Of a stretch of DNA of 40,156 bases, positions 24,415 through 29,253 are shown one piece after another. The translations under genes were made by a program, and so were the position numbers. Source of the DNA: Shigella phage ESh23. The notes below the pieces were generated by a model. That model saw only the letters and a list, made by a program, of their open reading frames with translations. It ran no database searches and was not told the origin of the DNA. The first letter of the stretch is position 1. Every line of letters begins with the position of its first letter. Location of the stretch: sequence record ON528733. The stretch is one strand, 5' to 3'.

Positions 24415-24627
24415 ATGATTAAGTTTATTGAATTTCTGGGTCGTCTGGTTGTGCGTGGCTATGCTCGTGCTGCGAGTGTGGAACGAAAAGTCGCATCTGC
24501 TGCGGCTAAAGGTGCGGAAGCGGCTGCTGCGGAAGCGGATAGCCTGCGCATCAAGTCTCTGGACGCTGGCCTACGTGCCAAAGGTCTTGACAAGAAAGCC
24601 GAGCAACTGAAAGGCTTCTTCAGCTAA
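24415..24627 (+). CDS. hypothetical protein, 70 aa, Ala/Lys-rich helical
   Basis: SD AAGGAG 8 nt upstream. Confidence 0.55.
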   Translation: MIKFIEFLGRLVVRGYARAASVERKVASAAAKGAEAAAAEADSLRIKSLDAGLRAKGLDKKAEQLKGFFS

Positions 24628-24692: not shown

Positions 24693-26477
<1,785 letters not shown>

Positions 26478-26478
<1 letters not shown>

Positions 26479-27011
26479 TGAGAAACTTAATCAACGGTAA
26501 GACCCTGACCGAGGTGCAGCTTGAACTTGGCCCGAAGGAGGGACTTGAGGTCTTCACCTCCCGCTGCACTGGTCGGACTTTGGGTCGGGCACTACTGTTC
26601 ATATCTACAGCTATGGCCCAAGGGTCCATCGACATCGGGCCGCTACGCTCTAACTTGGGAGACCAAGAGATTGATAGCGTGAAGTATCAAATCACACAGC
26701 GTCTAGACCAGATGGGCCTCGTTGGGTTCAAGCTGGAAGGAGACGTTCTGTCCTATTATCCATTTGAGGAGTACCAAGATGTTAAAGAGGTTGTGCGAGA
26801 AGTTACAGTCCAAGTATCACCTTTCGCTGGCGAAGTGGTATCACCACGAAGCTACAGTGTTGAGCAACATCCTGAAGGACCAGCGGTTCCAGTCGGTAGC
26901 ATGGAACAAAGCTACCCAGAAGTGCGCGTATCATCTGGCGAGAGTCCTTTAGTAGAACCGATGGAGGTCATAGAGCCGTTGGTCCCAGACATGACTCCGC
27001 CTAAGGCTTAA
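26478..27011 (+). CDS. hypothetical protein, 177 aa (T7 gene 4.3-4.7 position), GTG start
   Basis: GGAGGA SD 7 nt upstream of GTG; ends at the promoter before the DNA polymerase gene. Confidence 0.6.
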
Positions 27012-27027
27012 CTATCACTGTAGGATA
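27008..27027 (+). promoter_or_regulatory. phage RNAP promoter (phi4.7 position): TTAACTATCACTGTAGGATA
   Basis: Consensus with G at -2. Confidence 0.6.
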
Positions 27028-27067
27028 GACTCAAGGCCATTCACTTCGAGTGGTCTTTATGATTAGA
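27027..27067 (+). promoter_or_regulatory. conserved hairpin element (RNase III site, R4.7 position)
   Basis: AGACTCAAGGCCATTCACTTCGAGTGGTCTTTATGATTAGAC; third copy of the family. Confidence 0.4.
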
Positions 27068-27081
27068 CTATAGGAGACATT

Positions 27082-29253
27082 ATGATTGACTTACAGAATA
27101 TCTGGGGTTCGGACATAGAGACCAACGGTCTTCTTGATACCGTCTCTCAGTTCCACTGTGGGGTCCTGATTAACGCCGAGTCGAATGAGACCCTGAAGTA
27201 CGGGGTAGCTCCGATGGTAGGTATCGTCGGTGGCTTCAAAGAGTATGTGCAGAAGGTCGAAGAGATTGCAGCCACACCGCATGGACTTCTGGTCTTCCAC
27301 AACGGGATTAACTATGACGTCCCGGCTATTGACATTCTGAAGCGTAAGTATTTTGGTAAACGTTTCAACTTCCCTAAACACAAGATGATTGACACGCTGG
27401 TCATGGGCCGCCTGATGTACCCGAACATTAAGTTCTCGGACATGGGCGCTGTGAAAGCTGGTCGTCTTCCGCCTAAGATGATGGGACGACAGTCTCTTGA
27501 AGCATGGGGCTACCGTCTCGGTGAGATGAAGGGTGAGTACAAGACCGATTACATTGCCAAGTGCAAGGCAGAAGGTATCGAATATAAGGCTGGTGACGAG
27601 TGGTTATTCCCAAGCCAAGAGATGCTGGACTATAACGTCCAAGACGTTGTGGTCACTCTGGCCCTGTTCAAGAAGTTCCTTACCGACAAGTACTACTTCG
27701 GGTCTCCTGAGGCCGGACTTGAGGCTGTGTACGCACTGCGTCTCGAACATGATGCTGCGTGGACATGCGCTAAGATGGAACGTAACGGCTACCCGATGAA
27801 CTCGGAGATAGTCGAGGGCTTGTATCGCGAGCTATCAGTCAAACGTGCGGAGCTTTTGGATAAGCTGCGGTCGACGTTCGGTAGTTGGTATTCACCTAAG
27901 GGTGGCAAAGAGTTCTTCAAGCACCCACGAACCGGGGCAGACATGCCGAAATACCCGCGAGTCATCTATCCGAAGGTGGGGGCAATCTTCAAGAAGCCGA
28001 AGAACAAAGCTCAGCGCTTAGGTCTGGAGCCTTGCGAACGAGACTCACGAGATACGATGGAAGGCGCACCGTTCACACCAATTACCTTCGTTGAGTTCAA
28101 TCCGGGCAGTGGCGACCACTTAGCTAAGGTTCTGATGGACCGGGGCTGGGAGCCTACTGAGTTCACGGATACAGGGAAGCCTAAGTGTGATGATGAAACT
28201 CTGGAGCACGTTAAGCTGGCAGACCCAGAAGCTCAGGCCTGCGTAGAGCTGGTCCGTGAGTATCTGGTGGTCCAGAAGCGCATTGGTCAGGCGGCTGAAG
28301 GTAAGAACGCATGGCTTCGACTTGTAGGTCCTGACGGAAGGATGCACGGGTCGATTAACCCCTGTGGTGCTGTAACCGGACGTGCGACTCACAGTTCACC
28401 GAACATGGCTCAGGTCCCGGCTAACGGTGCTCCTTGGGGTGAAATCTGCCGAAGTGCTTTCGGTGCTCAGTGGAACAAGAACAATGGCAAGGACGAACCG
28501 TGGATTCAGGTTGGCGTTGATGCCTCAGGCCTTGAACTCCGCTGTCTGGGGAACCGTGCGTCCCCGTTCGATGGTGGAGAATATGCGAAGACTGTGGTAG
28601 AGGGTGACATCCACTGGGCTAATGCGGTCAACGCCGGGTTAGCGCCTAACGTCCAACGCGACAAGTCTAACCACGACCACGATGCTTTCCGTAACAACGC
28701 CAAGACGTTCATCTATGCGTTCCTGTATGGTGCAGGGGCCGCGAAGATTGGACTGATAGTAGGAGGCGGCAAGAAGGAAGGCTCAGCCCTGATGAAGAAA
28801 TTCATTGAGGGTACACCAGCTATCAAGGACCTGCGAGAGGCTGTTCAGAACACGCTCATCTCTGAGTCCAAGTGGGTAGACGGTGAGAACATCGTGAAGT
28901 GGAAACGCCGCTGGCTTAAAGGTCTGGACGGTAGACGTATCCACATCCGGTCTCCACACTCAGCACTTAACGCCTTACTTCAGGGCGATGGTGCGGTAGT
29001 ATGTAAGCACTGGATTGTCGAGACTGAACGTATGCTAGAAGAGGCCGGGTATGTCCACGGCTGGGAGGGAGACTTTGCGTACATGGCTTGGGTCCACGAC
29101 GAATTGCAGATTGCGTGTCGTACTCAGGAGATTGCCGAAGAAGTCGTCAAGATTGCTCAACTTGCTATGCGTAAGGTGGGTGAGTTCTATAACTTTAAAT
29201 GTGTCCTTGATACCGAAGGTAAGATTGGACCAACGTGGAAGGAGTGTCACTAA
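27082..29253 (+). CDS. DNA polymerase (T7 gp5-like, family A) with 3'-5' exonuclease and thioredoxin-binding region, 723 aa
   Basis: DIETNGLL, FHNGxNYDVPA (exo motifs); TFGSWYSPKGG...KYPRV (TBD region); RDNAKTFIYAFLYGAG (motif B), YMAWVHDELQ (motif C). Confidence 0.97.
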   Translation: MIDLQNIWGSDIETNGLLDTVSQFHCGVLINAESNETLKYGVAPMVGIVGGFKEYVQKVEEIAATPHGLLVFHNGINYDVPAIDILKRKYFGKRFNFPKHKMIDTLVMGRLMYPNIKFSDMGAVKAGRLPPKMMGRQSLEAWGYRLGEMKGEYKTDYIAKCKAEGIEYKAGDEWLFPSQEMLDYNVQDVVVTLALFKKFLTDKYYFGSPEAGLEAVYALRLEHDAAWTCAKMERNGYPMNSEIVEGLYRELSVKRAELLDKLRSTFGSWYSPKGGKEFFKHPRTGADMPKYPRVIYPKVGAIFKKPKNKAQRLGLEPCERDSRDTMEGAPFTPITFVEFNPGSGDHLAKVLMDRGWEPTEFTDTGKPKCDDETLEHVKLADPEAQACVELVREYLVVQKRIGQAAEGKNAWLRLVGPDGRMHGSINPCGAVTGRATHSSPNMAQVPANGAPWGEICRSAFGAQWNKNNGKDEPWIQVGVDASGLELRCLGNRASPFDGGEYAKTVVEGDIHWANAVNAGLAPNVQRDKSNHDHDAFRNNAKTFIYAFLYGAGAAKIGLIVGGGKKEGSALMKKFIEGTPAIKDLREAVQNTLISESKWVDGENIVKWKRRWLKGLDGRRIHIRSPHSALNALLQGDGAVVCKHWIVETERMLEEAGYVHGWEGDFAYMAWVHDELQIACRTQEIAEEVVKIAQLAMRKVGEFYNFKCVLDTEGKIGPTWKECH

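What the first reader, a model, noticed from the sequence alone, without database searches (positions are those of the whole stretch)
26478..27011. 177-aa protein of unknown function between primase-helicase and DNA polymerase
This slot holds three small genes in T7 (4.3, 4.5, 4.7). Here it holds a single GTG-initiated 177-aa ORF with a GGAGGA SD, including an acidic Pro/Val-rich C-terminal half. The T7 gene in this region (4.5) is an anti-Lon factor, so the locus is a plausible site for anti-host functions.
Basis: partly seen in the sequence, partly recalled or inferred. Interest (0 to 1): 0.4.

Follow-up and report, generated by a model that had tools for sequence, protein, structure and literature searches.

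The report
Two overlapping genes, not one
The 177-codon gene is real, but its proline/valine-rich back half is read, in a different frame, across an older 57-codon gene that is still intact, so this slot of a T7-like phage holds two overlapping genes of unknown function rather than one.

Summary
The ORF is present exactly as described: GTG at 26478, stop at 27011, GGAGGA six bases upstream. The window is a Kayfunavirus (K1F-like). The ORF is the annotated hypothetical "gp4.1" of Cronobacter phage Dev2 (PHROG 18700). It shows no similarity to T7 gp4.3, 4.5 or 4.7.

It has two parts:
- Residues 1-100 form a confidently folded, winged-helix-like domain. The family has about 300 clusters, mostly 100-aa stand-alone phage proteins. 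Where the neighbours are informative, they are helicase, polymerase or ligase genes.
- Residues 101-177 are predicted disordered. This half overlaps, in the +1 frame, a 57-aa ORF (26779-26952, own GAGGAG and ATG, PHROG 13039). That small gene stands alone in the same slot in about 200 other Kayfunavirus genomes and is predicted as a high-confidence helical hairpin.

Both frames are intact in all 14 phages that carry the long ORF. Substitution patterns indicate purifying selection on both frames, stronger on the embedded one, and on the 18 codons beyond the overlap.

The tail is therefore best read as an overprinted extension of a domain gene that lost its stop. Neither protein has a known function. 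A replication-module accessory role is inferred from context only. An anti-host role is neither supported nor excluded. Interest is modest.

The parts
26466..26471 (+). Shine-Dalgarno GGAGGA of the 177-aa ORF, 6 nt before the GTG
   Evidence: Read directly from the sequence.
26478..27011 (+). Main ORF of 177 aa with a GTG start, the gp4.1 / PHROG 18700 family
   Evidence: Listed. PHROG 18700 matches over the full length at E 1.1e-107. It is 94.9% identical to Dev2 gp4.1 and EP1. It is intact in 14 phages, at 150-177 aa.
26478..26777 (+). Codons 1-100: folded winged-helix-like domain, the conserved core of the family
   Evidence: AF2 gives pLDDT of about 81-97 over residues 1-100, with H10-17, H19-31, H33-48, E50-52, H56-60, H62-79, E84-87 and E90-93. 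pN/pS is 0.24. A profile search finds 309 clusters at 50% identity.
26765..26770 (+). Shine-Dalgarno GAGGAG of the embedded gene, 8 nt before its ATG (it also encodes Glu97-Glu98 of the main ORF)
   Evidence: Read from the sequence. GAGGAG is kept in all 13 Kayfunavirus genomes and is AAGGAG in CR8.
26779..26952 (+). Embedded +1-frame gene of 57 aa with an ATG start (PHROG 13039), a basic helical hairpin
   Evidence: PHROG 13039 at E 1.9e-25. It is 47% identical to the stand-alone 54-aa gene of phage IME278. tblastn finds it in 220 phage records. AF2 gives pLDDT 95.8 with H2-38 and H40-56. pN/pS is 0.30 in this frame against 0.77 in the main frame.
26955..27008 (+). Codons 160-177 of the main ORF, downstream of the embedded stop: single-coding end of the tail
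   Evidence: pN/pS is 0.24 in the main frame, and changes concentrate at codon position 3 (21 changes at 17 sites, against 6 at 16 and 3 at 17). This stretch is absent from stand-alone loci, absent in CR8, and cut short in GW1.
27008..27029 (+). Phage-promoter-like site that overlaps the stop codon of the main ORF and precedes gene 5
   Evidence: One of 12 + strand matches to AACTATCACTATAGGGA, where 0.05 are expected by chance. It is conserved in relatives that lack the long ORF.

Best explanation
The locus is a dual-coding cassette. An ancestral small gene (57 aa, PHROG 13039, a basic helical hairpin) is the usual occupant of the helicase-polymerase slot in Kayfunavirus.

In one clade (this window, EP1, Dev2, SH3/4/5, SFPH2, GW1 and others, plus Caroctavirus CR8), a roughly 100-aa winged-helix-like domain gene sits directly in front of it. 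That domain gene is common in phage replication modules and ends at about residue 100 in other subfamilies. Here it has no stop of its own. Ribosomes that start at GTG 26478 therefore read on in the -1 frame relative to the small gene. They cross all of it and 18 further codons, which adds a 77-residue acidic, Pro/Val/Glu-rich disordered tail.

The small gene is still translated separately from its own SD and ATG, which lie inside codons 97-101 of the long ORF.

Shown here: both ORFs, their homologies, the fold predictions, and purifying selection on both frames.

Inferred: the origin of the tail by overprinting; and the function. I take the domain protein to be a replication-module accessory that binds nucleic acid or a replisome partner through the winged-helix-like domain, with the acidic tail adding a second contact or a regulatory handle. 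I put the architecture at about 0.85-0.9 and the functional part at about 0.3.
For: Architecture:
- Both ORFs are present in the window.
- The stand-alone homologue aligns at DNA level to 26763-26940 and at protein level.
- Both ORFs are intact in 14 of 14 phages.
- The frame equivalent to the main ORF carries 1-5 stops in 13 of 13 stand-alone loci and none in 14 of 14 fused loci.

Selection in the overlap:
- Changes that are non-synonymous in the embedded frame are accepted 4.1 times more often when silent in the main frame (16/114 against 9/235, p = 0.0013).
- Changes that are non-synonymous in the main frame are accepted 8.6 times more often when silent in the embedded frame (25/98 against 9/235, p = 2e-8).
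- The non-overlapping control region shows no +1-frame effect (p = 0.89).
- Main-frame synonymous-site change falls from 1.20 per site in codons 1-100 to 0.28 in the overlap, and is 1.24 (21 changes at 17 sites) after it.
- pN/pS after the overlap is 0.24.

Which frame is older:
- The embedded protein folds at pLDDT 95.8, while the main-frame tail is below 50 from residue 107.
- The order-to-disorder boundary coincides with the embedded ATG at main codon 101.
- The domain occurs without any tail in PhiM1 gp17 (100 aa, ending just after the YYPF motif) and as the C-terminus of 230-aa proteins in Molineuxvirinae.

Function:
- The domain gene lies between helicase and DNA polymerase in four Autographiviridae lineages.
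- Distant 97-98-aa homologues lie next to a DnaB-type helicase and a family-B polymerase, next to PC4-like, ligase and DnaB genes, and next to a T7-type primase-helicase.
Against: - No expression data were examined. Selection counts use related genomes and are not independent events.
- A cruder test comparing codon-position profiles between stand-alone and overlapped copies of the small gene was not significant (p = 0.41).
- The tail is dispensable in part. CR8-type proteins stop at 136-158 aa, and GW1 has a premature stop at codon 166.
- The domain in this clade is acidic (pI 4.9-5.3), whereas the family is mostly basic (median pI 8.6). This argues against simple DNA binding for this particular protein.
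- Four of seven sampled distant contexts were uninformative.
- No member of either family has a tested function.
Confidence: 0.6

Rival explanations
1. Only the N-terminal 100-residue domain matters. The tail is a tolerated run-on product caused by loss of a stop codon and has no function of its own. Its apparent conservation is a by-product of the embedded gene and of the gene 5 promoter.
For: - The tail is predicted disordered.
- Selection in the overlap is dominated by the embedded frame (pN/pS 0.30 against 0.77).
- The conserved tail motif V.VQVSPF.GE.V.PRSY coincides with the best-conserved part of the embedded protein.
- CR8-type proteins lack the distal tail, and GW1 carries a nonsense codon at 166.
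Against: - The main frame stays open over 57 overlapped codons in 14 of 14 genomes, whereas 13 of 13 stand-alone copies have 1-5 stops in that frame.
- Inside the overlap, changes silent in the main frame are accepted 4.1 times more often (p = 0.0013).
- The 18 codons after the overlap show pN/pS 0.24 with a third-position excess, and they lie upstream of the promoter match.
Confidence: 0.22
2. One or both proteins are anti-host effectors (anti-defence or host take-over), as T7 gp4.5 is said to be. Their position in the replication module would then be incidental.
For: - The slot is variable among T7-like phages: three unrelated genes in T7, only the small gene in most Kayfunavirus genomes, and the cassette here.
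- The cassette has a patchy distribution, with mosaic upstream junctions of at least five different sequences.
- This clade has shifted from the basic character of the family to an acidic domain plus an acidic tail, as might suit a protein-binding or DNA-mimic role.
Against: - There is no similarity to gp4.5 or to any other characterised effector.
- PADLOC gives no match and Pfam none.
- The domain family keeps its place beside helicase and polymerase genes across subfamilies, and even in phages with a family-B polymerase. That is more typical of a core-associated accessory than of a host-specific weapon.
Confidence: 0.13
3. The embedded 57-aa ORF is a relic that is no longer translated in this clade. 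It is conserved only because the main frame constrains the DNA.
For: Most GenBank records of this clade do not annotate it; CR8 annotates it as gene 4.22. The second CDS annotated under the match in SH3, SH4 and SH5 is instead the gene 4.2-like ORF (gp22.2/gp21.2), not the embedded gene.
Against: - The ATG, the SD and the full 57-codon frame are kept in 14 of 14 genomes.
- Purifying selection is stronger in this frame than in the main frame.
- Most variation falls at its third codon positions (28 changes, against 7 and 16).
- It is predicted to fold at pLDDT 95.8.
Confidence: 0.05

Closest known systems
Cronobacter phage Dev2 gp4.1 / PHROG 18700 (annotated hypothetical proteins of Kayfunavirus)
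   Same: It has the same gene, position and length (177 aa). It is 94.9% identical, and the HMM matches over the full length at E 1e-107.
   Different: Nothing differs in substance. In the window, EP1 and SH4 the start codon is GTG rather than ATG, and the upstream junction differs. The family has no described function.
Citrobacter phage CR8 genes 4.21 and 4.22
   Same: It has the same overlapping arrangement: a domain gene with a 57-aa gene embedded in the +1 frame. Identity is 51% for the main protein and 63-64% for the embedded one. It is the one record inspected here that annotates both ORFs.
   Different: The CR8 main ORF ends at 150 aa, at the end of the overlap, and lacks the 18-codon distal tail. 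The record gives no analysis of the overlap.
Stand-alone small gene of Kayfunavirus (PHROG 13039; 'gp4.3' in the EcoDS1 record; hypothetical in the other annotated records; in the K1F record the match is unannotated, lying under the gene 4.0 CDS)
   Same: It is homologous to the embedded ORF (44-54% identity), sits in the same slot between genes 4 and 5, and precedes the same downstream promoter.
   Different: It is not overlapped by any other gene, and the other frame contains stops. It is 54 aa with a different C-terminal end.
K1-5 gp10-type proteins of Molineuxvirinae and PhiM1 gp17 of Corkvirinae (PHROGs 25669 and 6703)
   Same: They share the roughly 100-aa domain (30-40% identity, with motif N.I.GKT...G...G..F..R..G.[ST]...AL..I..AM ... 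GF ... P), and they lie between helicase and DNA polymerase.
   Different: They have no acidic tail and no overlap. PhiM1 gp17 is the bare domain. The Molineuxvirinae proteins add an N-terminal SH3-like domain and are basic.
Winged-helix domains (SSV1 F-112, Pol delta p66 N-terminal WH, cullin WHB)
   Different: Sequence identity is 3-8%, two extra N-terminal helices are present, and the scores are weak. Alba-like folds score similarly. No binding activity is known.
T7 gp4.3, gp4.5 and gp4.7
   Same: Only the position between the helicase and DNA polymerase genes is shared.
   Different: No sequence or profile similarity was detected. The gp4.3 homologue of this phage lies upstream of gene 4.

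Membership tests
T7 gp4.3 / gp4.5 / gp4.7 | Detectable sequence similarity to the T7 proteins | tested here: not met
   BLASTP gave no alignment with gp4.3 or gp4.5, and only a 5-residue match at E 1.7 with gp4.7. tblastn against the whole window found nothing significant. hhalign of the domain profile against gp4.7 gave probability 0.1%.
PHROG 18700 (gp4.1-like) | Full-length match to the family HMM | tested here: met
   E 1.1e-107, covering residues 1-176 of the protein and positions 1-176 of the 176-position profile.
PHROG 13039 (embedded small gene) | Match to the family HMM, and the same genomic slot | tested here: met
   E 1.9e-25, with residues 6-56 matching profile positions 2-52 of 54. 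The stand-alone members examined lie between genes 4 and 5.
Overlapping (dual-coding) gene pair | Both reading frames intact in all relatives | tested here: met
   14 of 14 genomes keep both ORFs. The main-equivalent frame has stops in 13 of 13 stand-alone loci.
Overlapping (dual-coding) gene pair | Purifying selection acting on each frame independently | tested here: met
   Fisher p = 0.0013 for the main frame and 2e-8 for the embedded frame, with the control region at p = 0.89. The counts are not phylogenetically independent, and a cruder codon-position test was not significant.
Overlapping (dual-coding) gene pair | Both proteins produced during infection | not testable with these tools
   No proteomic or ribosome-profiling data were available. 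Both ORFs have a Shine-Dalgarno sequence at suitable spacing.
Winged-helix fold | Topology H1-S1-H2-H3-S2-S3, with significant structural similarity to solved winged helices | tested here: inconclusive
Winged-helix fold | Nucleic-acid binding | not testable with these tools
   The family is mostly basic (median pI 8.6), but the domain in this clade has pI 4.9-5.3.
P-loop NTPase (Walker A) | GxxxxGK[ST] with an invariant Lys, preceded by a beta-strand | tested here: not met
   The motif here is R-C-T-G-R-T. The Lys/Arg position is Asn, Asp or Ala in close relatives, and only R29 and G32 are conserved. AF2 places a helix, not a strand, before it. Pfam and NCBIfam P-loop hits are confined to a few members at E of about 1e-4 to 1e-1.
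Ribbon-helix-helix (FitA-like) | Significant sequence match, and a strand-helix-helix dimer fold | tested here: not met
   The best PDB sequence hit, FitA, has E 0.3 over 40 residues. The AF2 model is an alpha/beta domain with a three-stranded sheet.

The most novel reading that the evidence does not exclude
A functional, selected, intrinsically disordered C-terminal extension was born de novo in a T7-like phage. A replication-module domain gene lost its stop and overprinted an older, still-functional small gene, which gave a protein whose two halves differ in evolutionary age. In addition, the roughly 100-aa domain may define a widespread and so far unrecognised accessory factor of phage replisomes, used with both family-A and family-B polymerases.
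Probability: 0.35. Interest if true: 0.5.

Novelty: new member of a known kind. Interest (0 to 1): 0.33.

Why it matters
**Annotation.** Most GenBank records of this clade list only the long ORF and miss a conserved 57-aa gene. SH4 also mis-starts the long ORF at Met46. Any knockout or engineering of "gp4.1" would hit two genes at once. The two silent-in-one-frame mutations given under next steps allow them to be separated.

**Evolution.** The locus is a tidy and datable example of overprinting in a dsDNA phage. The ancestral frame is known from about 200 stand-alone copies, and the donor domain is known without a tail from other subfamilies.

**Function.** The analysis flags a roughly 300-cluster family of about 100-aa phage proteins that sit beside helicase, polymerase or ligase genes where the neighbours could be identified, and whose role is unknown.

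Tried and rejected
- **T7 homology.** BLASTP, tblastn and hhalign against T7 gp4.3, 4.5 and 4.7 found nothing.
- **Family libraries.** Pfam, NCBIfam and PADLOC gave no match for the window proteins. Rfam found nothing in 26200-27200.
- **Transcription signals.** No sigma-70 promoter or intrinsic terminator was found in 26200-27300.
- **P-loop reading.** I rejected a P-loop or terminase-fragment reading of the R-x-T-G-K-S-T-G motif. The Lys is not conserved and a helix precedes the motif.
- **RHH reading.** I rejected a ribbon-helix-helix reading based on the FitA hit (E 0.3).
- **Conserved gene pair.** I tested whether the small genes downstream of the domain gene in PhiM1, S2 and Kp7 are homologous to the embedded gene. 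They are not; they belong to different PHROGs or match none.
- **Codon-position chi-square.** Comparing stand-alone and overlapped copies gave p = 0.41. I replaced it with a per-opportunity two-frame classification.
- **afdb50 fold library.** It was not available.
- **IMG/VR scan with the domain profile.** It added only 10 loci, mostly ones already seen.
- **Literature.** Searches found no functional study. The SH3/4/5 paper only lists Dev2 gp4.1 as the best hit.
- **Programmed frameshift.** A +1 frameshift that fuses the domain to the helical hairpin was considered but could not be tested. No evidence for it was seen.

Full report
**1. The observation**

The ORF is present as described. It runs 26478..27011 on the + strand, is 177 aa long and starts with GTG. 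GGAGGA lies at 26466-26471, six bases upstream. The ORF sits between the primase-helicase gene (24696..26399) and the DNA polymerase gene (27082..29253).

The frame opens only after a TAA at 26454-26456, so GTG is the first possible start. Ten of 13 relatives have ATG at the homologous codon. The first 48 residues are the best-conserved part of the family. The start is therefore sound, whereas the SH4 record starts its CDS at Met46.

Residues 101-177 have pI 4.3 and contain 12 Pro, 16 Val and 11 Glu.

**2. Where the window comes from**

The region is 96.8% identical to Enterobacter phage EP1. It is 82-94% identical to Citrobacter phages SH4 and SH5, Cronobacter phages Dev2 and GW1, and Shigella phages SFPH2, SFP21B and SFP20. 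SH3 matches at 79.7%, and MopsHU1, IMEP24 and Ro45lw at about 81%. The records that give a taxonomy are classed as Kayfunavirus (Studiervirinae).

The ORF is annotated there as a hypothetical protein, "gp4.1" in Dev2. It matches PHROG 18700 over its full length (E 1e-107). It has no Pfam family.

**3. No relation to the T7 genes of this slot**

- BLASTP against T7 gp4.3 and gp4.5 gave nothing, and against gp4.7 only a 5-residue chance match.
- tblastn of those three proteins against the whole window found nothing significant.
- hhalign of the domain profile against gp4.7 gave probability 0.1%.
- The gp4.3 homologue of this phage lies upstream of gene 4, at 24415..24627 (32% identity, E 4e-5).

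**4. The N-terminal half is a conserved folded domain**

AlphaFold2, run on a 37-sequence alignment, gives pLDDT of about 81-97 for residues 1-100. The elements are H10-17, H19-31, H33-48, E50-52, H56-60, H62-79, E84-87 and E90-93. From residue 107 onward pLDDT is below 50.

This 100-residue unit occurs in several forms:
- It stands alone as PhiM1 gp17 (Corkvirinae, 100 aa).
- It forms the C-terminal domain of roughly 230-aa proteins in Molineuxvirinae (Kp7_10, S2 gp11, the "K1-5 gp10" type).
- In all of these it lies between helicase and DNA polymerase.

A profile search of 1.8 billion cluster representatives found 309 clusters at E <= 1e-3. Most are stand-alone proteins of about 100 aa. The core pattern is R-x-x-G-x-[ST]-T-G..AL..IG.AM.NP...I.I.D ... 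L.GF ... Y.P.

I sampled seven distant members for genomic context:
- One lies between a DnaB-type helicase and a family-B polymerase.
- One lies beside PC4-like, DNA ligase and DnaB genes.
- One lies directly after a T7-type primase-helicase.
- One lies among an AAA_33 kinase-like and a faint RNA-ligase-like gene.
- Three were uninformative.

Fold searches gave only weak matches:
- Foldseek against the PDB gave no significant hit, but its top weak hits are almost all winged helices.
- BFVD returned only uncharacterised phage homologues.

The Walker-A-like look of the motif produces weak AAA and terminase Pfam hits for a few members. However, the Lys position is not conserved (Arg here; Asn, Asp or Ala in relatives), and a helix rather than a strand precedes it. 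I therefore reject an NTPase reading.

The family is mostly basic (median pI 8.6), but the domain in this clade is acidic (pI 4.9-5.3).

**5. The C-terminal half overlaps another gene**

Kayfunaviruses that lack the long ORF, such as IME278 and ST56, carry a 54-aa gene in the same slot. At DNA level that gene aligns to window positions of about 26763-26940.

In the window it corresponds to a +1-frame ORF with these features:
- It runs from ATG 26779 to the stop at 26952, giving 57 aa (MLKRLCEKLQSKYHLSLAKWYHHEATVLSNILKDQRFQSVAWNKATQKCAYHLARVL).
- GAGGAG lies at 26765-26770.
- It matches PHROG 13039 at E 1.9e-25.
- It is 47% identical to the IME278 protein and 63% identical to CR8 gene 4.22.
- tblastn finds it in 220 phage records, about 200 of which match at under 60% identity; these include K1F and EcoDS1, and the 13 such loci read here carry it as a stand-alone gene.
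- AF2 predicts a helical hairpin (H2-38, H40-56) at pLDDT 95.8, and its pI is 9.9.

The embedded ATG falls at main-frame codon 101. That is where the long protein changes from ordered to disordered, and where the bare domain ends in PhiM1.

**6. Are both frames real?**

All 14 genomes with the long ORF keep both ORFs, the embedded ATG and its SD. In 13 of 13 stand-alone loci the frame equivalent to the main ORF carries 1-5 stop codons. In the 14 fused loci it carries none.

Pooled Nei-Gojobori estimates over 13 Kayfunavirus genomes:

| Region | Main frame pN/pS | Other frames |
|---|---|---|
| Codons 1-100 | 0.24 | about 1.5 |
| Overlap | 0.77 | embedded 0.30; third frame 2.37 |
| After the overlap | 0.24 | about 1.0-1.9 |

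Main-frame third-position change is 1.20 per site in codons 1-100, 0.28 in the overlap and 1.24 after it. Such a drop in synonymous change is expected where a second functional element overlaps.

I then classified each observed allele by its effect in both frames, relative to the mutational opportunities:
- Changes that are non-synonymous in the embedded frame are accepted 4.1 times more often if silent in the main frame (16/114 against 9/235, p = 0.0013).
- Changes that are non-synonymous in the main frame are accepted 8.6 times more often if silent in the embedded frame (25/98 against 9/235, p = 2e-8).
- The same test in codons 1-100 shows no +1-frame effect (p = 0.89).

Caveats apply:
- The genomes are related, so the counts are not independent events.
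- A simpler comparison of codon-position profiles was not significant (p = 0.41).
- GW1 has a stop at codon 166, and CR8-type proteins end at 136-158 aa, so the distal tail is not indispensable.

**7. Interpretation**

The small gene is the older resident of the slot. It is widespread, stands alone elsewhere and is predicted to be well folded. The domain is an older unit of different origin that normally ends at about residue 100.

In this clade the domain gene abuts the ribosome-binding site of the small gene and has no stop of its own. Translation therefore continues across the small gene in another frame, and through 18 extra codons that are absent from stand-alone loci. The result is a disordered acidic tail. 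This is the standard overprinting pattern: the ancestral frame is structured and the novel frame is disordered.

The conserved tail motif V.VQVSPF.GE.V.PRSY lies over the best-conserved part of the small protein. Part of its conservation is therefore borrowed from the other frame.

Transcription:
- No phage promoter lies between gene 4 and the ORF.
- The nearest promoters are at 24627, before gene 4, and at 27010, overlapping the ORF's stop and serving gene 5.
- Both genes are therefore most likely co-transcribed with gene 4. This differs from T7, which has promoters phi4.3 and phi4.7 in this slot.

**8. Function**

Nothing is known experimentally for either family. The only paper found merely lists Dev2 gp4.1 as the best hit.

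My preferred reading, at about 0.3, comes from the persistent association with helicase, polymerase and ligase genes and from the winged-helix-like fold. On that reading the domain protein is a replication-module accessory that binds nucleic acid or a replisome partner. The acidity of this clade's domain and tail favours a protein partner over DNA.

It remains possible, given the patchy distribution and the mosaic junctions.

**9. Verdict**

The ORF is real and already annotated as a hypothetical protein. The locus is an overlapping gene pair, with an overprinted tail and an under-annotated small gene. It is a tidy evolutionary case and a useful correction to annotation, but it is not a new kind of system.

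Noticed in passing
window 26128-26478 (+): A 116-aa ORF in the +1 frame overlaps the 3' end of the helicase gene and runs 79 nt past its stop. Its TAG (26476-26478) shares a base with the GTG start of the 177-aa ORF (TAGTG). It is 51% identical to T7 gp4.2 over 70 aa and is annotated as gp21.2/gp22.2 in SH3, SH4 and SH5. The similarity may only reflect the conserved helicase frame beneath it. The stop-start overlap could allow translational coupling.
   Followed up: partly
window 26400-26477, and the same junction in L001, L002, L006 and L011-L020: The sequence between the helicase stop and the start of the ORF is mosaic among close relatives. At least five unrelated upstream sequences occur, the SDs differ, and the start is ATG or GTG. 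This suggests repeated recombination at this junction.
   Followed up: partly
window 24415-24627 (+): The homologue of T7 gp4.3 (70 aa, 32% identity, E 4e-5) lies upstream of gene 4 in this phage, not between genes 4 and 5. It is followed directly by a phage promoter at 24627.
   Followed up: yes
window, + strand: 6714, 12193, 16394, 19931, 21679, 22530, 24627, 27010, 31175, 33997, 34993, 39461: There are twelve copies of a phage-RNA-polymerase promoter-like consensus, AACTATCACTATAGGGA, with up to 3 mismatches, all on the + strand. Chance expectation is 0.05. The copy at 27010 overlaps the TAA of the 177-aa ORF.
   Followed up: partly
L005:3638-4348 (Kp7_10), L007:2644-3348 (S2 gp11), and P0013-P0120: Molineuxvirinae homologues carry an extra N-terminal SH3/KOW-like segment (L.L.VGD.VRNI...GW.G.V...Y.V.Y.NG). 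hhalign against T7 gp4.7 residues 67-105 gives a weak hint (probability 12%, E 0.0024). T7 gp4.7 might therefore be related to that other half of the slot's protein. This is not established.
   Followed up: partly
alignments A5 and A6 (domain family): There is a charge switch within the family. Most members are basic (median pI 8.6, with 37 of 60 at pI 8 or above). The Kayfunavirus/CR8 clade domain is acidic (pI 4.9-5.3), and it is also the only clade with the acidic tail.
   Followed up: partly
L014 (Cronobacter phage GW1) 395-892: The GW1 copy of the long ORF has a TAG at codon 166, where relatives have GAG, yet the DNA stays homologous beyond it. This is either a recent nonsense mutation or a sequencing error. 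It removes the last 12 residues.
   Followed up: no
L008 (Enterobacter phage Entb_48) 2992-3318: A 108-aa homologue of the domain lies in a record where the upstream gene is annotated as 'portal protein' and everything else as hypothetical. The context looks mis-annotated and was not resolved.
   Followed up: no
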